A stretch of DNA of 11,786 nucleotides from a virus (IMGVR_UViG_2698536590_000002), one strand, 5' to 3'. Shown: positions 1 to 9,764, numbered from the stretch's first letter. The notes: generated by a model from the sequence alone, not told the origin. Numbers and translations are program-made.

Positions 1-338
1 GTAAGTTGGCAGCATCACCAGCCTTCTTGAGGCTACCACCTGTTTTCAGGTGTCATTCAGACGTGATTTGCCCCAGATTGGGAAAGCACGCTTTTTTCTC
101 AGCTATCGTCCTCTTATTTTGCCGTTACATTTCTTTTTGCACTCTAATGATTAATTTACAATAATAATATCGGTAATTATTGAGTAATAATAAATTGATT
201 ATTGCAAATGTAATTTAATTCCATCTTCGCGTTATATTTCAATCTTTAATCTCCGCATGGAACAAGTTGCATGCGTGACTATATTAAGACAACTTATAAC
301 CACCAAAACATTTGCTTTGCAAGCAAAAACAGTGACCA

Positions 339-367
339 TTGACTCTAAGAAAATTCCGATCTATTGT
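339..367 (+). promoter_or_regulatory. candidate sigma70 promoter TTGACT-N17-TATTGT
   Basis: TTGACT at 339-344, exact 17-nt spacer, TATTGT at 362-367; a near-palindrome TTTGCTTTGCAAGCAAA (311-327) lies just upstream. Sequence pattern only. Confidence 0.25.
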
Positions 368-652
368 TAGGGTCATCAAAGTTACTTAACAGTATTCCGA
401 AATGAAAATACAAAGCAAGCTAATTGTCTTATTAAACATTATTATTGCATTTATATTATTTGAGCTTTTAGCTCAAAAATTTGGTTTGAGTACATTATTT
501 TAAAGCAAGATAAACAATATCGGGCACTCTAGTTTTTATAATTAACAATTAAACGTCCATGAAATGTTATTTACTTTTCTTCGCTATTGTCATATCTTAA
601 TATAGTGGCTTACGCCACTCTACTTTCATCACATTTTGTACGTTTATGTACT

Positions 653-682
653 CGCCATGAAGCTCTTTCATGGCGATTTTTT
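653..682 (+). terminator. intrinsic terminator-like hairpin plus T-tract
   Basis: 9-bp perfect stem CGCCATGAA / TTCATGGCG (653-661 / 667-675), 5-nt loop, then ATTTTTTATT. The T-run follows the hairpin only on the plus strand. Confidence 0.4.
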
Positions 683-768
683 ATTCTTAATCCAAGAACA
701 TACTCCCTACCTATAGCAAAATCACTTTTTTAACAAAAGAATAACGTATTTAGGTAATCATTACGAAT

Positions 769-1350
769 TTACCCTATAGGTGCTACTGGCCATTCAATAT
801 CCGGTGCAGTTAATGTATCAACACGGTTCAGCAACACCCGATACTTTTTCCAGGCTTCCAGCAACAAGGTTTCTTCCTCCGTTGCGATTTCCAGATCTAC
901 AGCATCCTGAAGTGGCGCAATATGCTCACTGGCTACCTGCATCAGGCTGTTTTTTGTTTCTTCTGCCTCCCGGATCCGGAACAGTTTTTCTGCTTCCGTA
1001 TCCTTCACCCAGGCTGTGCCGTTCCACTTCTGATATTCCCCTCCCGGCGACAACCAGGTAACATTTTCCGGTAACGGACCGAGTTCAGAAATAAATAACG
1101 CGTCGCCGGAAGCCACGTCATAAACCGTTTTACCCCGATGGTCTTCAACGAGATGCCACGATGCCTCATCACTGTTGAAAACAGCCACGAAGCCTGCCGG
1201 AATATCTGGTGGTGCAATATCGGTACTGTTTGCTGGCAGACCTGTATGAGGCGGAATATATGCGTCACCTTCACCAATAAATTCATTAGTTCCGGCCAGC
1301 AGATTATAAATTTTTATGGTCCGTGCTTGTTCACTCATTCTGAATGCCAT
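769..1350 (-). CDS. tfa: tail fibre assembly protein (lambda Tfa / T4 gp38-like chaperone family)
   Basis: 193-aa ORF starting [50 protein letters not shown], recognised as the conserved Tfa N-terminal domain of lambdoid prophages. ATG overlaps the stf stop (TAATG), indicating translational coupling. Confidence 0.85.
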
Positions 1351-4300
1351 TATGCAAGCCTCACAATATAGTTAAATGCGATGTTTTTGACGGTGTTTTC
1401 CGCGTTACCCGCAGCGTTAACGGTGATGGTGTGTCCATGTGAGCCAATCGCAACGGAGTGCGTATGAGCACCAATACCGACAGTATGTGCATGTGCGCCT
1501 GCGATTGCAGCAGTGCCGGACAGCGAGTGGGTATGAGCACCATCTGATGATGTCTTCCCTGCATTACGAGTCTGGCCACTACCGCTTGTTGTGCTCATAA
1601 TCCCCGCGCTTGGATTTGAAATCGCGGTATAACCATTAGGGAAAATGCTCGTGTTCGTGCCACCAAATGCACCGGAACTCTTGTGTTGGTGCGCGCCGGC
1701 ACTATTTGCGGTCCCGCTAATACTATGGGTATGCGCCCCGGTGTTATTCGTGGATTTGGTTCCGTAATCAAACGACGATGTGGTTTTCGTCCCCAAATCC
1801 GTACTGGATGCGCTGGCGCTGTGGGTGTGCGATTTAATGCCGTCCTGTTCCTGAGACAATACGGCGCGACCACTGGCAGGTTTGCCCTTAATCGTCCAGC
1901 CACGCATATCAGGGATCACGCCTGACGGATAAGCGGCTGCAAGTTTCGGGTATGCAGATTTGTCAAAAGTCTGCCCCTGCATCAGGGCATAACCAGACGG
2001 AACGGTATCTGATGGCCACGGGATTGGTGCGCCGACTGGGTAGCTTTCTGGTGGAAGATTTTTCGAGGTATAAACTTCTGCCCAGTCTTCCTCAAAACCA
2101 TAGCCATCTCTTGAGGAACGGTAGAACAGACCTCCATTTCTGTAATGTGCCTTCATCTGCAGGGTCCGGCAACTTCCGACTCCGGTATAGAAGTTAACCA
2201 GAATATAGCTGTCGCCAGAGCGGGTGACATTGTAAGCGCCTGATTCGGCATTCCATGGAACGCCCCCATCCGCATCGGCATATGTATCCGTTGCCCTTCT
2301 GGCAAAAGCAGCCACATGCGCGGCGGTTAAAGTAATATCTTTGGAACCATCAAACTCAACACCAGAAACCAGTCTTGGCGTTTGCAGCTTTGTTGCTGTT
2401 AATGCATTACCATTCAGACTTGCGGACAGTTTGGTTCCAATAATCAGTTCGCCGGTTGCGTTATCAATAGCAAACGGTCTTAATGTATTCCAGCCACCAT
2501 AAACATCACCTTGATTGGTAAGCAGCAGGTAAGTTTTAGCGCCATCATTACGCCATAATGCACCATACTCCCCACCTATCATTCGAATCTGATTACCACC
2601 ACGCGCTACAATTTCGTCTGTGGCAAAAAGTTTTTTGCACGACAAGTTATCGTTAACGATTAACGAATGAGACTCATAAAAACCACGCCCACTCTTAAAA
2701 TCAAGGATAACGTCCGCCGCGATACATTCAGTCGCCGGATTTGTTGCCCCAAACTTATAGGTCGTATCATTAACAACGAGATCAGCACCAGGTGCGGATA
2801 TTGACAGGCCATCTTCGATAAACGCAAAAACAGGGAAAGCAGCGCCATCAACATAGAACACAGAGCGCAAATCATCGCCCTTATTACTCATCATTATTGA
2901 GTGGATGGCTCGTTCATTGTTTTGATATTGCCAGAACATTCCATAAGCATAACGCCCCCTGTCAGTCCAGCCACCAGGCATAACAAATCCGTTAAACTCG
3001 CAGTTATTCATCGGATCGCCTGCGGTTCGCGTTGCCGTGGTGATAATGACCCTTGATGCCAGTTCGCTTACTGAGCCAGCAGAACGCATAACAACAACAG
3101 GGTAATATTTTCCAGATATTGCACCTGCAGGAGCGTTAACCCGCACATAACGCATACCACGCTTATCAGCAAAGTCTGTTTTACTGACCGCGTTAATGTT
3201 GTTCAGGAAGCGTCCCTTATCGGGTATATCAGCGCCGTTCTGGTCTTTCTGCAGACGTTTCTCTGCATTGTCATAGGCTGATTTTACTGCCTTTGGCGTT
3301 GCCGCCAGCGTTTCAGACGAACTGTTGGTCGCACTGCTGAGCTGTACTATCCCCTTTTTCGTCGTACTTGCATCCTCAAGCGCCACGGCGGATGCAATAT
3401 CCTCTGCCCGTTTAGCTGCTGTCTCGGCGCGCGTTGCTGCGGATTCTGCCGTATTCTTGCTCTGTGCTGCCGCCGTCGCACTGCCAGCAGCCTCTGTTGC
3501 CTTCGTGGATGCCGTCGTGGCGCTGCCTTTCGCTGCTGATGCCTGTCTGGTCGCCTCATCTTTTGAAGCAGACGCCGATGAGGCCGATGACGCCGCCGAA
3601 CTGGCGGACGATGCGGCAGCCGTTTTTGAGGATTCTGCGCTGGTTTCCGACGCTTTCGCGTTCGTTTCGGATGTCTTCGCTGCGGAAGCTGACCTCGCTG
3701 CTGCGTTGGCCTGTTCAGTGGCTTCGCCAGCCTTCGTTGTGGCTGTTGAAGCAGACGATGCGGCACTTTCTGCCGATTTTCCGGCGGCGGTGGCACTGGC
3801 TGAGGCCTGCCCGGCACTTGTTGACGCGGCGCTGGCAGACGACGCAGCCGCTGTTTTTGAGCCTGCCGCAGCTGAGGCACTCTGTCCCGCTGCCGTTTCA
3901 GAAGACTTAGCGTTCGTCTCGGACGTTTTGGCCGCCTTCGCAGAATTTGCTGTCGCCGTTGCCGAGGAAGCTGCGCTGCTGGCGCTCGAGGCTGCGCTCG
4001 TTTCTGATGATTTTGCCGCCTCTTTTGAAGCTGACGCATCCCGGGCTGAGGTGGCAGCTTCTGACGCTTTCGTGGTCGCGGTGGATGCAGAAGTGGCTGC
4101 TGATTGTTGTGACGCTGCCGCATTCGTTTCTGACGTTTTCGCCGCAGCGGCACTGGTGGCCGCCGCGCTTTTTGAGGACTCTGCAGCGGCAGCACTTTTT
4201 TCCGCTTCAGTGGCCTTTGTTGATGCCGTTCCTGCGCTGGAAGACGCTGACTGAGCCGACGACGCGGCCTGTCCGGCTGACGTGCTGGCTGCGCGTGCTG

Positions 4301-4757
4301 AGCCTGCAGCATCAGTCGCATGGGTTGCCGCCTCACGGGCTGATGTGCCGGCATCGCTGGCTGACTTCTTCGCGGCTGCCGTGTTCTGTGCCACCGCGGA
4401 CGCGTTACGCGCCACCTCTTCCACCATCAGCTCAAAACGGCGCAGTGCCTCCGGACGGGCATCATCCTCCGTCATGGCACCAAGAAAATCATTCAGCGTA
4501 CCCGGTTGTGAGTCTTCATACACGGTGATGGTCCCGGCATGCGATGGCGGGAAGCCTTCCACCAACAGAATAACGCTGTACTGACCGTACTCAACGTCCA
4601 TGCTGTAACGCCCGGCTTCATCCGGATTTTCTGAGGCCACCGTGTTCACCACCACCGTGGTGCTGTTACGTTTTGCTTTCAGCTGGATTGTGCAGTTCTG
4701 TACCGGTTTTCCTGTGCCGTCTTTCAGTACACCTGAAATCTTTACTGCCATATTCAC
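1350..4757 (-). CDS. stf: side tail fibre protein (lambda Stf / Rac StfR-like)
   Basis: 1135-codon ORF. The track start is GTG at 4755-4757; the first ATG is two codons in (4749-4751), preceded by GGGGTG, giving [26 protein letters not shown], the conserved Stf N-terminus, so the real start is probably 4751. Ala/Ser/Thr-rich repeat shaft, conserved [50 protein letters not shown] block, C-terminal tip with seven HxH motifs, ending [11 protein letters not shown]. Confidence 0.9.
3390..4409 (-). repeat. intragenic low-complexity Ala/Ser/Thr-rich tandem repeats in the stf shaft
   Basis: Stf residues ~117-456 are almost entirely A/S/T/K/E with the unit AAKTSETNA recurring three times at roughly 70-90-residue spacing. 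The GC-rich codons create long spurious ORFs in other frames and on the opposite strand. Confidence 0.7.
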
Positions 4758-4815: not shown

Positions 4816-5415
4816 TCAGAACTTATAACCGACACCCACGATGAAACCGTCAGTGCGCCAGTCACCACTGCCGGAGCCTTCATAAGCAATATCAATGGCC
4901 ACGGATTCGGTCGGGTTAAACTGCACGCCAGCCCCCCACGCCAGAGACGTGTTGCTGTGGCGACCGTCATCACTTCCGGTCAGCACATCGTGCGTTTTCC
5001 CCTTGTTGTCAGTTACGCGGAGATAATCCCCGAAGAAAGTCGACACACGGCTGTAAGCCACACCCGCCATCGCATACGCGCTGAACCATTCATTCACGCG
5101 CACAGACGGCCCCGCCATCACGCTGAACCAGCGGTTACGCACGGAATCTTCATGCCAGCGGGTATCGCTGTAACGGGTAAGCTGGCGATTCTTGTCTCCT
5201 GCATAGCTGAATGACGTCATCAGCCCCAGTGTGTCCGTAAACTCATAACGGTATTTCACGTTAATCCCGTTCAGATTATCGCTGCCGGGAACGTTCGCCA
5301 AGGCATGAAGATACCCCGCGCTCAGCGTGGACTGATGTTCAGATGCCCATGCAGGCGCACCGGATACGGCCAGACAAATGGCTGCGGAAAAAATGGCGGC
5401 ATAAAGTTTACGCAT
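4816..5415 (-). CDS. lom: outer membrane beta-barrel protein Lom (Ail/Lom/PagC/Rck family)
   Basis: 199-aa ORF with signal peptide [24 protein letters not shown], alternating beta-strand pattern, and C-terminal GVGYKF aromatic terminus typical of outer membrane proteins. Position between J and stf matches lambda gene order. RBS GAGAGG upstream. Confidence 0.85.
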
Positions 5416-5484: not shown

Positions 5485-6126
5485 TCAACGAATACTGATG
5501 CCGGAAGCGGCTTTTTTGGTCACAATCACCGTACAGTCGGTGATATTACCTGCCCGCTGATTGCCTTTATGGAAAACCTTAAACTCCAGAGTGACGCTTC
5601 CCCTGCCACTCGGCATATCAATAACCGCACTGTAGCTACCGGGAATGGCCCCTTTAGTTTCTCTGGATGCGATTAATACACCGTTTTTGCGAACTTCAAA
5701 ACCATAACCCGTGTATCTTGTACCTCCCGGGTTATTACCACTTCCCGGATCGCTATACGCTATTCCGTTAAAGATAATGGGCGGAATAATGATTTGACGG
5801 TCAAAGTTATGATCATCGCTGATGGTGACTGTAACCGTCCCGTTTGGTGTTTCCGTATTACCCCACGTACCAGCCTGTTTCGGGAATGATTTGGATACAG
5901 CTTTAACGAAGTCACCTCTGACCTGAGTCGCCTCCAGCATGCCCTTAATCGTACAGTTTTCATTTACCGTGACATTGTTGAGCGTCCCGGCGTTCGCATT
6001 CACACTGCCACTGATATCCGCATTTTTAGCGGTCAGCTTTCCGTCCGGTGTCAGGGAAAATGCCGGTGGATTTCCACCGCTGGTAATGGTGGGGGCCGTC
6101 AGGCGTTTCAGGAACACGTCGTTCAT
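5485..6126 (-). CDS. C-terminal receptor-binding domain of host-specificity protein J (central tail fibre), present as a truncated stand-alone ORF
   Basis: 213-aa ORF; motifs [40 protein letters not shown] and DDH.FDRQI resemble the extreme C-terminus of lambda gpJ as I recall it. Its ATG overlaps the T stop (ATGA) exactly where H would normally start; the preceding sequence GAAGGGATCAGATATTC matches the lambda T/H junction. A full J is ~1100 aa, so roughly 900 codons plus H-I are absent. Confidence 0.6.
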
Positions 6127-6545
6127 GAATATCTGATCCCTTCTGATACTGTCATCAGCATTACGTCATCCTCCGTCATGTCCGCCACATCCGGGGAAGC
6201 GGGGATAACTTCATTCCCGTCCGGGCCAAAGCGGACACCTCCGGCAAGCCCTGCCGCTTTCTGCATCAGCACATCATCTTCAGGCTCTTCGTCAGCCTCG
6301 CGCCGGTTCAGCAGACTGAAATCCAGCGGATGCATATCCGGATCGCTGAAAAACAGGCTGAGCACGGTGTACGTCAGCCCGGAAAAGTGCATATCCAGCA
6401 GAACATCATGAAAATAATGGGTACTGTAAAAGCGGTGCCAGTCGGCATACTCCGTGGATGACATCCCGGCAAGCATGGCACGCCAGTCGGGTCGCCCCAT
6501 CTCACGCGCCAGTTTCAGGGCAAAACTCAGCTCACCGTCGAACAC
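6123..6545 (-). CDS. T: tail assembly chaperone T frame, expressed as a G-T fusion by -1 frameshift
   Basis: -1 frame relative to G with no independent ATG; reads (V)[39 protein letters not shown]...VSEGIRYS, matching lambda gpT. Confidence 0.8.
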
Positions 6546-6949
6546 TTTCCCGCAGAAACAGGCTCTGCGGGCCCGGCGTCCTCTGTCTGTTCAGGGGCAT
6601 TATTCACCACAAACTCATACATACCAGACAGCCGGTACACCACGTTTTCAGCATGAGAAATTGCCTCCGTGGGCCAGGTGGTAAGCACTTCCTGCTCAAT
6701 CTGTTTAACGGCTTCATTCATGGACGGCATCTGCGTCTTCTGCGGATGGTTATGCCACAGGGACATCGCCACCAGAAACGCGCCGGTTCTGATGGCGTCT
6801 TCCACAGTAAACTTCCGGTTGCTGTCTGACTCCGCCTGTTCTGCCTGCCGTTTCATCAGGGCGAGATGCTCAATGCGCTGCAGGGCTGACAGTTCAGAAA
6901 GCGTGACGGTCACACCGTTATGTTCAAATGATTCGGTTTTCAGGAACAT
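6527..6949 (-). CDS. G: tail assembly chaperone G
   Basis: 140-aa ORF MFLKTESFEHNGVTVTLSELSALQRIEHLALMKRQAEQ...[11 protein letters not shown], recognised as lambda gpG (same length). RBS GGAGAG upstream; sits between the V stop and the T frame. Confidence 0.85.
   Translation of the reverse strand: MFLKTESFEHNGVTVTLSELSALQRIEHLALMKRQAEQAESDSNRKFTVEDAIRTGAFLVAMSLWHNHPQKTQMPSMNEAVKQIEQEVLTTWPTEAISHAENVVYRLSGMYEFVVNNAPEQTEDAGPAEPVSAGKCSTVS
6545..6551 (-). other. programmed -1 ribosomal frameshift slippery heptamer G GGA AAG (G to G-T)
   Basis: Plus-strand CTTTCCC at 6545-6551 is GGGAAAG on the coding strand, in G frame as G_GGA_AAG (codons A-G-K of ...SAGKCSTVS). This is the canonical lambda G/T slip site, and the T frame opens exactly here. 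Confidence 0.8.
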
Positions 6950-6964
6950 CGCTGACTCTCCGGA

Positions 6965-7375
6965 TTAACTGGCGGTGACGGTAATTTCTGCAACCGCAGC
7001 AAACTCACCATTACCGGATACAACCGGAATGTTGACCTTGCCTGCAGCAACGCCGTTCACGGTGATGGTCATACCACTGACCGACACGGTGGCTTTTGTT
7101 TTATCCGCAGACACCGCACGAAAGCTCTTGTCGGTTACGCCCTCCGGCTGGAAGGCCACGGTCAGCGTGGTGCTCTGCCCTTTCACCACCGAGGTGCTGG
7201 CAGGCGTCACGGTCATGCCGGTTGCCGCTGTTACCGTGCTGCGATCTTCTGCCATCGACGGACGTCCCACATTGGTGACTTTCACCGTGCGGGTGATCAC
7301 TTCCTTCGCCGTCACCGCCTTACCGATACTGCTGACCCAGCCACGGAACACATCGATCGTGCCGTTCGGGAACCG
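6965..7375 (-). pseudogene. V: major tail protein V, C-terminal half only (includes the Ig-like domain); N-terminal ~115 codons deleted
   Basis: Frame reads [47 protein letters not shown]...AEITVTAS, matching lambda gpV from about residue 115 to its end. An in-frame TAG sits immediately upstream (7379-7381); there is no ATG or credible RBS, only an internal GTG at 7349-7351. Confidence 0.8.
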
Positions 7376-7434: not shown

Positions 7435-8024
7435 AACCCCACCTCGCAGACAAAGCGGGTGTAAATTGAGGGAATACAACGTATCGCAAAAAAGCAGAAA
7501 CGTAACAGACTCGGAGTCAGTGAATAACTCAGGTATTGAGTTATCAGCTAATATCGAGACTCAAAAAATGGAAAAACCAGCTCGACGGCGGGTTTAAGCT
7601 GTGTGACGAAGTAACCACTCTTAACAGCATAACCAATTTTTTACGTACGTAAACCACTGAATGATATTTATGAGAATGCTACCGAGTGTTCAAAACACCA
7701 CCACAAATACATAAGAAAACCTCAACAAATAACCAATAAATAATTTCCGGCGTTATTTTTAGTTAATTTAAATTAAACCATCGAATTATAGACCCCCCCC
7801 ATAAATAACAGCCATTAATATAAATTAGCTAATAGGTTTATTTTTGTTCAAATAAGAGCCATAAATAGGTTTCGATAGAAAAAGTTCAGATAAAAATAGA
7901 GATCTACTTCACAAATTAAATGAGAAACTAAAACTTACATCTTGAAATAATCACATTGATTAGATGAATATTTATCGCGCAGTGACATCATTTTTTAATA
8001 ATAGTTCAAAAAAAAGGGCTCACG

Positions 8025-9107
8025 ATGAAAAAATTAACAGTGGCAATTTCTGCTGTAGCTGCATCAGTACTGATGGCGATGTCTGCTCAGGCAGCTGAAA
8101 TTTATAATAAAGACAGTAACAAGCTGGATCTGTACGGGAAAGTTAATGCTAAGCACTACTTCTCCTCTAATGATGCAGATGATGGTGATACTACTTATGC
8201 CCGTCTTGGCTTCAAAGGTGAAACCCAAATCAACGATCAACTGACTGGTTTCGGTCAGTGGGAATATGAATTCAAAGGCAACCGCGCTGAATCTCAAGGT
8301 TCCTCCAAAGATAAAACCCGTCTTGCCTTCGCTGGCCTGAAATTCGGTGACTACGGCTCCATCGATTACGGCCGTAACTACGGTGTAGCATACGACATCG
8401 GTGCGTGGACTGACGTCCTGCCAGAATTCGGTGGTGACACTTGGACTCAAACAGATGTGTTCATGACTGGTCGCACCACTGGTGTTGCAACTTATCGTAA
8501 CAACGACTTCTTTGGTCTGGTTGATGGTCTGAACTTTGCTGCTCAGTATCAGGGTAAAAATGACCGCACTGACGTAACTGAAGCTAATGGTGATGGTTTC
8601 GGTTTCTCCACTACTTATGAGTATGAAGGATTCGGTGTAGGTGCAACCTATGCTAAATCTGATCGCACTAATAATCAGGTTATCTACGGTAACAACGGTC
8701 TGAATGCTTCTGGTCAAAATGCTGAAGTATGGGCAGCTGGTCTGAAATATGATGCGAACAACATCTATCTGGCCACCACCTATTCTGAAACCCAGAACAT
8801 GACTGTTTTTGGTAATAACCATATTGCCAACAAAGCACAAAACTTCGAAGCTGTTGCACAATATCAGTTCGACTTCGGCCTGCGTCCATCCGTTGCTTAC
8901 CTGCATTCTAAAGGAAAAGACTTGGGTGTTTGGGGTGATCAGGACCTGGTTGAATATGTTGATGTAGGTGCAACCTATTACTTCAACAAAAATATGTCCA
9001 CTTTTGTTGACTACAAAATCAACCTGATTGATAAGAGCGATTTCACGAAAGCATCTGGCGTTGCTACCGATGATATCGTTGCTGTAGGTATGGTTTACCA
9101 GTTCTAA
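8025..9107 (+). CDS. nmpC: phage-borne general porin of the OmpC/OmpF/PhoE family (NmpC / Lc type)
   Basis: 360-aa ORF with signal peptide [23 protein letters not shown], mature N-terminus [17 protein letters not shown], porin hallmarks ([43 protein letters not shown]) and C-terminal VYQF. Matches what I recall of NmpC/Lc. Divergent from and adjacent to Q, as in DLP12. Confidence 0.9.
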
Positions 9108-9243
9108 TTTGATTACTAAAAGATATGTTGTGGGAGGCTTTGCCTCCCCAACATATAAGTGGCTCCCTCAAGCCACTTCCTTTAGAAGCACAACCTTGCT
9201 TCTAACTATATAAACCTTCTGTTATATATTACCCTTTATTTTT

Positions 9244-9270
9244 GGGGGCGTTGCAACGCCCCATTTTTAA
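9244..9270 (+). terminator. rho-independent terminator downstream of nmpC
   Basis: Perfect palindrome GGGGCGTTGCAACGCCCC (9245-9262) followed by ATTTTTAATAATTTTT. Three further strong hairpins lie between the nmpC stop and this site (9132-9148, 9157-9178, 9183-9204). Confidence 0.65.
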
Positions 9271-9295
9271 TAATTTTTAGTAAACAACTGGCATA

Positions 9296-9679
9296 TTAAT
9301 TAGAGTTATTAACAACGATATCCATCTCTAACCGGATATCTAATGCCATTAACATCCCTTCAATTATGCCCTCAGCCTTCTGTAACCTTTTCCCGATATA
9401 ACCATCAGAGCAGCAATGCTTACCTGCCAGTGACATGAATGTCATACCGACTACATAATAATCTACTAATAAATCGTGCAAATCGCTGTTGTTCTTTTTC
9501 AGACGGGCCATGCACCCGCAAATAATCATCGCGTCATCGTCACAACATTGCGGGCGAGATTTTACTTTTGAAGTAATTAATCCCTTAAAACCGGCGGCAA
9601 TGGACGACCAGGTCACATCTTCATGATTATTAGCCGCCCACGCTCCCCAACGCTCAAGAACCATCTGAATATCACGCAT
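9296..9679 (-). CDS. quuD: late-gene antitermination protein Q (phage 82 / DLP12 QuuD-like)
   Basis: 127 aa from ATG at 9677-9679 (RBS GGAG; the track ORF extends upstream from a TTG). Reads [64 protein letters not shown]..., recognised as the 82-type Q family with its Cys-rich zinc motif. Gene order rusA-ylcG-Q-nmpC matches DLP12. Confidence 0.8.
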
Positions 9680-9764
9680 CAACTTACTCCACAAAAATCA
9701 GACCAGAACGCCAATTACAAGCAAAAATCAACAAAACAGTATTAGTTGATTGTTATCTCTGACT

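What the first reader, a model, noticed from the sequence alone, without database searches (positions are those of the whole stretch)
311..682. Left-hand AT-rich island carries a promoter-like element, a 33-codon hydrophobic ORF and a plus-strand terminator
No ORF of 60 codons or more exists in 1-768, yet the plus strand has a near-consensus promoter (339-367) just downstream of a 17-bp near-palindrome (311-327), then ATG at 402 encoding MKIQSKLIVLLNIIIAFILFELLAQKFGLSTLF (stop 501-503), then a strong terminator (653-682). The geometry fits a ~300-nt small transcript encoding a membrane peptide or acting as an sRNA. There is no recognisable Shine-Dalgarno before the ATG, which lowers confidence but is not unusual for type I toxin-like genes.
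Basis: inference. Interest (0 to 1): 0.45.

Follow-up and report, generated by a model that had tools for sequence, protein, structure and literature searches.

The report
Unannotated prophage copy of yncL
The 33-codon ORF is very likely a real but never-annotated gene: a phage-carried relative of the E. coli stress membrane peptide YncL, with its own conserved promoter-like site, a conserved structured 3' tail and a terminator, present in about 15% of complete E. coli genomes.

Summary
On their own the promoter match and the ORF length are no better than chance in this AT-rich DNA. Comparison with diverged copies changes the picture.

- **The module.** Window ~191-768 lies just downstream of the tail-fibre assembly gene in 828 of 5426 complete E. 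coli genomes and in phages mEp332, ev099 and PhiR70_1.
- **The ORF evolves as a protein.** Against a 79%-identical copy it has 17 nt changes but only 5 amino-acid changes (permutation P = 4.5e-4). It is 33 codons and intact in 79 of 80 copies.
- **It is a YncL relative.** It shares 39% identity with K-12 YncL over 28 ungapped residues. Its alignment score of 60 compares with 20 ± 4 for shuffles. It scores 25 bits on NCBIfam YncL, below the 35-bit cut-off, which is probably why annotation pipelines miss it.
- **Regulatory signals.** The -35/-10 spacing and the terminator are conserved, including in E. albertii.
- **The 3' tail.** Positions 601-675 are the most conserved block (93-97%), so they may have an RNA function of their own. 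This is untested.

A type I toxin-antitoxin pair, a MicC-like sRNA and the 311-327 palindrome are not supported. Verdict: a phage add-on gene (moron) encoding a YncL-family small membrane protein, a new member of a known kind.

The parts
1..19 (.). Context: end of an IS1 element (terminal inverted repeat). The conserved module starts well to its right.
   Evidence: In identical loci an IS1A transposase gene ends about 36 bp to the left of the match. Phage copies without IS1 align only from window 20. The identity of the repeat sequence is from my own knowledge of IS1.
196..300 (.). Conserved block A upstream of the promoter. It is noncoding and its function is unknown.
   Evidence: It is 83-90% identical in the 79% copy. 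All six frames contain stops, and the start codons of the ORFs at 257 and 271 are lost in other copies.
311..327 (.). Probably incidental.
   Evidence: The sequence is. It lies in a 60%-identity trough, is destroyed in the VTB-type copy and has a point change in PhiR70_1-type copies.
339..367 (+). Promoter-like site: -35 TTGACT (339-344), 17-nt spacer, -10 TATTGT (362-367). The predicted start is about 375 (inferred).
   Evidence: Found by the scan. The -35 is identical in all E. coli copies. The -10 is TATCGT in the 79% copy, with the same spacing. E. albertii has TTGAAT-17-TATCGT (read by eye).
402..503 (+). 33-codon gene for a YncL-family single-pass membrane peptide. There is no Shine-Dalgarno sequence, and the 27-nt leader is A/U-rich.
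   Evidence: The hydrophobic core is residues 7-24. The leader has a predicted unpaired probability of 0.63.
459..477 (+). Hairpin inside the ORF that the scan flagged as terminator-like. Incidental.
   Evidence: Flagged. The stem is broken by the E21K change (GAG to AAG) in the VTB allele and by the A24D change (GCT to GAT) in the R12 allele.
537..542 (+). TATAAT hexamer, a possible internal -10 for a separate ~130-nt RNA. Weak candidate.
   Evidence: It is TACAAT in the 79% copy. There is no usable -35, the scan did not call it, and it lies in a 60-67% identity trough.
604..619 (+). Conserved stem-loop SL1 (6 bp, loop UUAC).
   Evidence: Folded. 95.8% of cells are paired across 12 distinct sequences. 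The only stem changes are to G-U wobble pairs, while the loop varies (UUAU, AUAU).
620..651 (+). Conserved, mostly single-stranded linker (CUCUACUUUCAUCA...). It is a candidate seed or Hfq-binding region. Alternatively, 631-646 pairs with 550-567.
   Evidence: GCCACTCTACTTTCATCA is exact in nearly all copies, including E. albertii; one copy (L111) has a single A-to-G change. Predicted unpaired probability is 0.61. The long-range helix has weak covariation.
652..686 (+). Intrinsic terminator, plus strand only: 10-11 bp stem followed by UUUUUUAUUC.
   Evidence: Nine of 10 stem pairs are invariant while the loop varies. The minus-strand RNA has no U-run after the hairpin.
769..1350 (-). Context: tail fibre assembly gene (tfa), convergent with the module.
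   Evidence: ORF.

Best explanation
Window ~191-768 is a self-contained add-on gene of lambdoid (pro)phages, a 'moron', lying after the tail-fibre assembly gene.

Proposed mechanism:
1. A host-type promoter (339-367) starts a ~310-nt plus-strand RNA at about 375.
2. After a 27-nt A/U-rich leader without a Shine-Dalgarno sequence, the RNA encodes a 33-residue peptide (402-503).
3. The peptide is a diverged homologue of the E. coli small stress membrane protein YncL. It has two N-terminal lysines, an 18-residue hydrophobic helix and a short QKFG-containing tail.
4. The RNA continues through a ~180-nt 3' region whose last 80 nt are highly conserved (stem-loop 604-619 and a single-stranded linker), and ends at an intrinsic terminator (652-686).

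[quoted passage not shown] There it either lowers membrane potential and metabolic activity, as reported for overproduced YncL, or has been re-purposed to interfere with incoming phage at the inner membrane, as happened with the phage-captured YebO homologue gp15 of HK97.

Shown here: homology to YncL, the protein-coding mode of evolution, conservation of the promoter hexamers, their spacing and the terminator, and the distribution of the module.

Inferred only: transcription, translation without a Shine-Dalgarno sequence, membrane insertion and the physiological effect.
For: Distribution:
- The region is in 828 of 5426 complete E. coli genomes (942 places, none on plasmids) and 4 records of three named lambdoid phages (ev099 is held under two accessions). 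It is always just downstream of tfa, at different prophage sites (bio/lambda att, sitD, ydfJ).

Coding signature:
- Against the 79% copy there are 17 nt differences at codon positions 7/1/9, giving 5 amino-acid changes. Random placement gives 10.8 (P = 4.5e-4).
- Against the R12 allele there are 6 differences and 1 amino-acid change (P = 0.018).
- The two alternative same-strand frames give 9-13 amino-acid changes.
- 79 of 80 copies have an intact 33-codon ORF.
- Among closely related alleles the ORF has about 2 variable sites in 102 nt, against about 12 in the 99-nt spacer. This is a hand count.

Homology to YncL:
- BLASTP gives 11/28 identities, ungapped from Met1.
- The Smith-Waterman score is 60 against 20.3 +/- 4.1 (maximum 45) for 20,000 shuffles, and at most 31 against 15 other small membrane proteins.
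- Three alleles hit NCBIfam NF000537 (YncL) at E = 1e-5 to 7e-5.

Moron features:
- GC is 28-30% against about 50% in the tail genes.
- The promoter hexamers and 17-nt spacing are conserved.
- The terminator is conserved.

Literature:
- YncL production depolarises the membrane and condenses the nucleoid (PMC12542507).
- Salmonella yncL is the sigma-S-dependent 'sRNA' STnc1110 (PMC5437024).
- HK97 gp15 is a diverged homologue of the host protein YebO, carried on a moron, that excludes superinfecting phage (PMC3594210).
Against: - There is no Shine-Dalgarno sequence, whereas K-12 yncL has one, AAGGTGG.
- The score is below NCBIfam's curated cut-off (25 against 35 bits).
- The ORF is essentially never called as a gene: there are 2 gene calls for these sequences among 15 billion proteins.
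- No expression data could be consulted.
- The promoter match alone is at chance frequency.
- The E. albertii copy has lost the start codon, carries a 10-nt deletion and has lost the stop. One metagenome copy has ATG changed to ATA. The gene is therefore dispensable in some backgrounds.
- Diversity is low: four sequence classes, all in Escherichia. The statistics therefore rest on few independent lineages, and recombination between classes is evident.
Confidence: 0.7

Rival explanations
1. Noncoding sRNA. The transcript, or a shorter RNA covering ~550-686, acts only as a regulatory RNA, and the 33-codon ORF is not translated.
For: - There is no Shine-Dalgarno sequence.
- The most conserved block is the untranslated 601-675 (93-97% in the 79% copy; 81% in E. 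albertii).
- The architecture is typical of an sRNA: stem-loop, U-rich single strand, terminator. The fold z-score is -6.3.
- There are weak, sub-threshold resemblances to the Hfq sRNAs MicC, Aar and Esr41.
- Salmonella yncL itself was first catalogued as an sRNA (PMC5437024).
Against: - The codon-position pattern and the deficit of amino-acid changes are hard to explain without translation.
- The homology to YncL runs colinearly from Met1.
- No Rfam family reaches its threshold.
- The candidate internal promoter is weak.
- The U-tail is interrupted (UUUCUU) in the R12 and VTB alleles.
Confidence: 0.1
2. Type I toxin-antitoxin locus. The peptide is a membrane toxin kept in check by an antisense RNA or by the co-located conserved RNA block.
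For: - The peptide is small and hydrophobic.
- The mRNA is structured (z = -3.3) and its minimum-energy fold pairs the start region with 631-650.
- Overproduced YncL lowers viability and membrane potential (PMC12542507).
- A minus-strand promoter-like site at 593->564 could give an antisense RNA across the ORF.
Against: - Complementarity between 550-651 and the start region is no better than shuffles (P = 0.37), and no equivalent duplex appears in the VTB copy.
- The 5'-3' pairing is absent from the centroid structure.
- Minus-strand promoter-like sites are at chance frequency, and the -35 of the 593->564 site is degraded in the VTB copy.
- There is no match in PADLOC, Pfam or PHROGs.
Confidence: 0.07
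3. Decaying relic. A captured yncL copy is no longer expressed and is carried along by linkage to the tail-fibre genes, with its apparent conservation reflecting young age and recombination.
For: - There is no Shine-Dalgarno sequence.
- The family is narrow: Escherichia only, four classes.
- The Q5-type copy is mosaic, with a crossover inside the conserved block.
- The E. albertii copy is degenerate.
- The window's prophage is itself heavily deleted.
Against: - The excess of synonymous change between the oldest alleles requires past purifying selection on the protein.
- The ORF is intact in 79 of 80 copies, although the flanking spacers have accumulated 30-40% divergence and indels.
- The module is present in plaque-forming phages.
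Confidence: 0.1

Closest known systems
YncL (E. coli b4598, 31 aa; NCBIfam NF000537; Salmonella STnc1110/STM14_1932)
   Same: - The size is similar (33 against 31 aa) and the layout is the same: a short basic N-terminus, one hydrophobic helix with a conserved Asn12, and an (R/K)FG motif near the C-terminus.
- Identity is 39% over 28 ungapped residues, far above shuffles.
- Both are carried on a short autonomous transcript.
   Different: - It is on prophages, not at the patD-ortT locus.
- It scores below the family cut-off, 25 against 35 bits.
- It has no Shine-Dalgarno sequence, whereas yncL has one.
- It has an unrelated and much longer conserved 3' region. The K-12 yncL 3' end is a different hairpin.
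HK97 gp15 moron (a phage-captured homologue of host YebO, giving superinfection exclusion)
   Same: - It is a small inner-membrane protein gene of host origin sitting in or next to the tail genes of a lambdoid phage.
- It has its own promoter and terminator and a deviant base composition (PMC3594210).
   Different: - The protein family is different (YebO against YncL).
- gp15 lies between the tail chaperone and tape-measure genes, whereas this module is after tfa.
- An exclusion function has not been tested here.
Type I toxins (Hok, TisB, ZorO, Ibs, Ldr)
   Same: It is a short hydrophobic peptide on a structured ~300-nt mRNA, and its homologue YncL depolarises the membrane when overproduced.
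   Different: No cognate antisense or pairing RNA was found, and there is no family match.
Dual-function or 3'UTR-derived Hfq sRNAs (SgrS/SgrT and CpxQ-type; MicC as the best but insignificant Rfam match)
   Same: It has a small ORF followed by a conserved stem-loop, a U-rich single strand and a terminator.
   Different: - MicC scores 22.8 bits against a gathering score of 90, E = 0.82.
- In a crude duplex-energy ranking, the ompC start region ranked in the weaker half of 44 start regions.
- No processing or Hfq data are available.
EHEC prophage anti-sRNAs (AgvB, AsxR)
   Same: They are short RNAs encoded at moron insertion sites of lambdoid prophages (PMC4104026).
   Different: They lie downstream of PR'/Q, are 51-60 nt long and are noncoding. 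There is no sequence or Rfam match here.

Membership tests
YncL family (NCBIfam NF000537, equivalog) | Score at or above the curated cut-off of 35 bits | tested here: not met
   Three alleles score 25.0, 23.5 and 22.5 bits (E = 1.3e-5 to 7.5e-5). K-12 YncL scores 68.6 bits. The ORF is therefore a paralogue, not an equivalog.
YncL family (homology in the broad sense) | Significant colinear sequence similarity to YncL that composition cannot explain | tested here: met
   BLASTP gives 39% identity over residues 1-28 without gaps. The score is 60 against 20.3 +/- 4.1 for shuffles, with 0 of 20,000 reaching it, and at most 31 against other small membrane proteins.
YncL family | About 30 aa with a single transmembrane helix | tested here: met
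   The peptide is 33 aa. The best 18-residue Kyte-Doolittle mean is 2.87 at residues 7-24, against 2.31 at residues 8-25 for YncL.
YncL family | Sigma-S or stress-dependent expression and inner-membrane location | not testable with these tools
   Literature only, for YncL itself (PMC5437024, PMC12542507). The -10 CTATTGT with C at -13 resembles sigma-S promoters, but this is inference only.
Phage moron | Own promoter and terminator flanking the gene | tested here: met
   The promoter-like site 339-367 and the terminator 652-686 are both conserved across diverged copies. Function was not shown.
Phage moron | Base composition different from neighbouring phage genes | tested here: met
   GC is 0.28-0.30 across 151-750, against 0.46-0.63 in tfa/stf.
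Phage moron | Expressed from the repressed prophage | not testable with these tools
   No transcript data are held.
Type I toxin-antitoxin | Cognate RNA antitoxin with complementarity to the toxin mRNA | tested here: not met
   The duplex of 550-651 with 375-440 is -15.4 kcal/mol against -14.5 +/- 3.2 for shuffles. The minus-strand promoter-like sites in 1-900, one of which (593->564) would read antisense to the ORF, are no more frequent than chance. An unrecognised antisense RNA cannot be excluded.
Type I toxin-antitoxin | Peptide toxic on expression | not testable with these tools
   Only the homologue YncL has been tested (PMC12542507).
Hfq-dependent sRNA (3'UTR-derived or independent) | Intrinsic terminator with a long U-tail, preceded by a conserved single-stranded seed | tested here: inconclusive
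   The main alleles have 5-6 U's, while the R12 and VTB alleles have UUUCUU. The conserved linker 620-651 is predicted to be unpaired. No target or Hfq data exist.
MicC (Rfam RF00121) | Score at or above the gathering threshold of 90 bits | tested here: not met
   22.8 bits, E = 0.82. In a crude duplex-energy ranking ompC is not a favoured target.

The most novel reading that the evidence does not exclude
The module may be a dual-function phage RNA. On this reading the mRNA makes a YncL-like membrane peptide. Its highly conserved 3' end (604-686) would then be released or separately transcribed as an Hfq-type sRNA that regulates host genes. Peptide and sRNA together would reprogramme the lysogen's envelope, for example to exclude superinfecting phage. 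The evidence does not exclude this: block 601-675 is more conserved than the coding region in two independent diverged lineages. Nothing shows it either.
Probability: 0.2. Interest if true: 0.6.

Novelty: new member of a known kind. Interest (0 to 1): 0.4.

Why it matters
- **Annotation gap.** A conserved small-protein gene in roughly one in seven complete E. coli genomes, and in culturable lambdoid phages, is absent from the RefSeq and GenBank records examined here. It falls just under the curated YncL threshold and lacks a ribosome-binding site.
- **A second host-to-phage capture.** After YebO/gp15 of HK97, this would be another host small membrane protein captured by lambdoid phages as a moron.
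- **A route to YncL function.** YncL has no established physiological role. A phage that keeps a copy suggests a selectable membrane-level effect that can be tested with existing phages (mEp332, ev099, PhiR70_1).
- **A separate lead.** The conserved 3' RNA block is a cheap thing to test on its own.

Tried and rejected
**Ideas tested and rejected**
- MicC-like sRNA acting on ompC. The Rfam hit is at chance level (E = 0.82). In a crude duplex-energy ranking, the ompC start region ranked in the weaker half of 44 start regions. duplexfold on long sequences is a poor method, so this says only that nothing stands out.
- The conserved 3' block pairing with the ORF start, as an antitoxin or fold-back element. 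It is no better than shuffles.
- Other ORFs as the real gene.
  - The 257-370 and 271-342 ORFs lose their ATG in other copies.
  - The 232-339 minus-strand ORF is frameshifted.
  - The 587-733 ORF gets an immediate stop in the R12 allele.
  - In the minus-strand 597-671 ORF, all 3 changes are nonsynonymous (partly by hand).
- The palindrome 311-327 as an operator or terminator. It is not conserved.
- The E. albertii 113-125 aa ORF as the ancestral full-length gene. It is unlikely. YncL itself is 31 aa and colinear with the 33-aa form. The E. albertii N-terminus shifts frame with the length of an A-run, and the ORF reads through the terminator hairpin.

**Searches that found nothing or were not informative**
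- Pfam, PHROGs and PADLOC gave nothing for the peptide.
- tblastn against the phage collection found nothing, even for known positives, presumably because of the low-complexity filter. It is therefore uninformative.
- The degenerate ORF pattern scan of viral contigs gave mostly chance hits.
- The metagenome and species-representative scans gave no new sequence class.
- A literature search for the peptide sequence found nothing.
- Covariation: SL1 and the terminator show only conservation and wobble-compatible changes. The long-range helix 550-567/631-646 has a few two-sided changes but is only 9/16 paired in E. albertii, so it remains tentative.

Full report
**Context**

The window is the tail end of a deleted lambdoid prophage of E. 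coli. On the minus strand lie lom (4816-5415), a 1135-aa side tail fibre gene (1350-4757) and the tail fibre assembly gene tfa (769-1350). Positions 1-19 are the end of an IS1 element. The finding sits in the 28-30% GC spacer downstream of tfa and is convergent with it.

**Checking the observation**

Taken alone they are weak.
- The promoter match is 9/12. Such sites occur at chance frequency in this DNA: 4 found against 4.0 +/- 2.2 expected.
- Six ORFs of 33 codons or more occur in 1-768.
- AT-rich DNA yields hydrophobic peptides by default.
- Only the terminator is unusual, with 2 terminator-like sites against 0.5 expected. Its hairpin is -15.2 kcal/mol.

**Distribution**

Region 300-700 is found in 828 of 5426 complete E. 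coli genomes (942 places, up to 4 per genome, none on plasmids). No feature is annotated under it. It is also in phages mEp332, PhiR70_1 and ev099.

It always follows tfa but sits in prophages at different chromosomal sites: next to bio, sitD and ydfJ. Homology to other contexts begins at 191 or 223 and ends at the tfa stop. The module is therefore about 191-768.

Scans of species-representative genomes, viral contigs and metagenomes found only four sequence classes, all in Escherichia:
- the main type (96-100% identical);
- an R12 type (~94%);
- a VTB type (79%);
- a strongly diverged E. albertii copy.

**The ORF is a gene**

- Against the VTB allele the 102-nt ORF has 17 substitutions at codon positions 7/1/9. 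They cause only 5 amino-acid changes (V9I, I15F, F17L, E21K, S30Y). Start, stop and length are kept.
- Placing the same substitutions at random gives 10.8 changes on average, and 5 or fewer in 0.045% of trials.
- The R12 allele has 6 substitutions and 1 amino-acid change (P = 0.018).
- The two alternative same-strand frames give 9-13 changes.
- Of 80 copies in hand, 79 have an intact 33-codon ORF. One low-coverage metagenome contig has ATG changed to ATA.

**What the peptide is**

- NCBIfam's YncL model (NF000537) matches residues 1-28 of three alleles at E = 1e-5 to 7e-5. The scores of 22.5-25 bits are below the 35-bit cut-off.
- BLASTP against K-12 YncL gives 11/28 identities without gaps, starting from Met1.
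- The alignment score of 60 was never reached by 20,000 composition-preserving shuffles (mean 20.3, sd 4.1, maximum 45). It is about twice the best score against 15 other small membrane proteins.
- The peptide is therefore a YncL paralogue. It has a KxxxK N-terminus, an 18-residue hydrophobic core and a QKFG tail.
- K-12 yncL has a Shine-Dalgarno sequence and an unrelated 3' end. The prophage gene has neither a Shine-Dalgarno sequence nor an upstream in-frame start. Its 27-nt leader is A/U-rich and predicted to be open.
- Pfam, PHROGs and PADLOC give nothing.
- The exact peptide has only two gene calls among about 15 billion proteins. The phage records annotate other, non-conserved ORFs instead.

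**Signals around the ORF**

- The -35 TTGACT is identical in all E. coli copies. The -10 is TATTGT or TATCGT, always 17 nt away. By eye, E. albertii has TTGAAT-17-TATCGT with much of the spacer conserved.
- The palindrome 311-327 lies in a 60%-identity trough and is lost in the VTB copy.
- The hairpin inside the ORF (459-477) is broken in two alleles.

**The 3' region**

- The conservation profile against the VTB copy has three peaks: 241-300 (90%), the ORF (80-87%), and 601-675 (93-97%). Troughs of 60-70% lie between them.
- The last block is also the best-conserved part in E. albertii, at 81%.
- It folds into stem-loop 604-619, a single-stranded linker whose core CUCUACUUUCAUCA is invariant in every copy in hand, and the terminator. 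The z-score is -6.3.
- Across 12 distinct sequences, the stems change only to G-U pairs while the loops vary.
- A long-range helix, 550-567 with 631-646, shows one clear G-C to G-U to A-U series. It is only 9/16 paired in E. albertii, so it is tentative.
- No ORF in this block behaves as coding.
- The terminator works only on the plus strand, because the minus-strand RNA has no U-run.
- Recombination occurs inside this block: the Q5-type copy is R12-like on the left and VTB-like on the right. Part of its conservation could therefore be gene conversion. The independent E. albertii evidence argues for real constraint.

**Ideas tested and dropped**

- The weak MicC resemblance (22.8 bits, E = 0.82) and an ompC-targeting idea found no support.
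- The 3' block does not pair with the ORF's start region better than shuffles do.
- Minus-strand promoter-like sites are at chance frequency. The type I toxin-antitoxin model therefore fails its defining test, as far as it can be tested here.

**Interpretation**

The best-supported reading is a moron: an autonomous promoter-gene-terminator unit of deviant composition at the end of the tail operon. It encodes a YncL-family small inner-membrane protein.

- From the literature, YncL production depolarises the membrane, condenses the nucleoid and sensitises cells to pore-forming peptides (PMC12542507).
- Salmonella yncL is the sigma-S-dependent transcript STnc1110 (PMC5437024).
- The closest precedent is HK97 gp15, a diverged copy of the host small membrane protein YebO carried on a moron, which blocks DNA entry of superinfecting phage (PMC3594210).

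By analogy, I propose that the peptide acts in the lysogen's inner membrane. It would either act as a YncL-like damper of membrane energetics or as an exclusion factor. This step is inference. The conserved 3' block may stabilise the mRNA or act as an sRNA, and I give the dual-function reading about 20%.

**Novelty**

This is a new, unannotated member of a known small-protein family in a known kind of genetic element (a moron). It is of moderate interest because of its prevalence, the annotation gap and the handle it gives on YncL function.

Noticed in passing
window 809-1007 (-): The Rfam family IS009 ('sRNA' candidate) matches at 227.9 bits, entirely inside the tfa coding sequence. The family probably models the conserved C-terminal coding part of prophage tfa genes rather than an RNA gene.
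   Followed up: no
window 5485-7351 (-): The tail genes are truncated and juxtaposed: a 213-aa fragment holding only the C-terminal receptor-binding domain of J, then T, G and the C-terminal part of the tail tube protein V. The prophage is heavily deleted and defective, unlike otherwise identical loci, which carry a full-length J.
   Followed up: partly
window 7500-9700: A second AT-rich island carries a 360-aa general porin gene (Porin_1, E = 3e-152; 8025-9107, +) next to an antiterminator Q gene (9296-9694, -). From memory, the arrangement resembles nmpC/lc in DLP12 and PA-2. The region downstream of the porin, where the IpeX RNA lies in DLP12, was not examined.
   Followed up: no
window 196-300: A noncoding block upstream of the promoter is 83-90% conserved in the 79% copy, although 301-338 between it and the -35 is only 60% conserved. 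It contains the inverted repeat AAGTTG...CAACTT (264-295). It has no conserved ORF, no Rfam hit and no known function.
   Followed up: partly
L015 1490-1900 (E. albertii NBRC 107761): A diverged copy lies between uspF and ttcA, the region where (from memory) Rac integrates in K-12. There is no prophage around it. The ATG and the stop of the YncL-like ORF are lost, so a 113-125 aa ORF runs through the terminator hairpin. This ORF is annotated as a hypothetical protein in E. albertii, and its N-terminus changes frame with the length of an A-run.
   Followed up: partly
L006 2744-3607; L008/L059: In the VTB-type locus the module is flanked on both sides by 3' fragments of tfa. The Q5-type copy is a recombinant: R12-like on the left and VTB-like on the right, with the crossover inside the conserved 3' block at about 632-662. 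Modules seem to be exchanged by homologous recombination at these conserved stretches.
   Followed up: partly
window 1-20; L003-L005: In mEp332, ev099 and PhiR70_1 the sequence to the left of window 20 continues for about 750 bp to a divergently oriented AraC-family regulator gene, followed by IS2-like fragments. In the window an IS1 insertion separates the module from that regulator. Whether the regulator controls the module is unknown.
   Followed up: no
PMC8175672 (literature): RIL-seq-based work lists host yncL as a target of KilS, an sRNA from the Rac prophage kilR region. That is another link between prophages and YncL.
   Followed up: no
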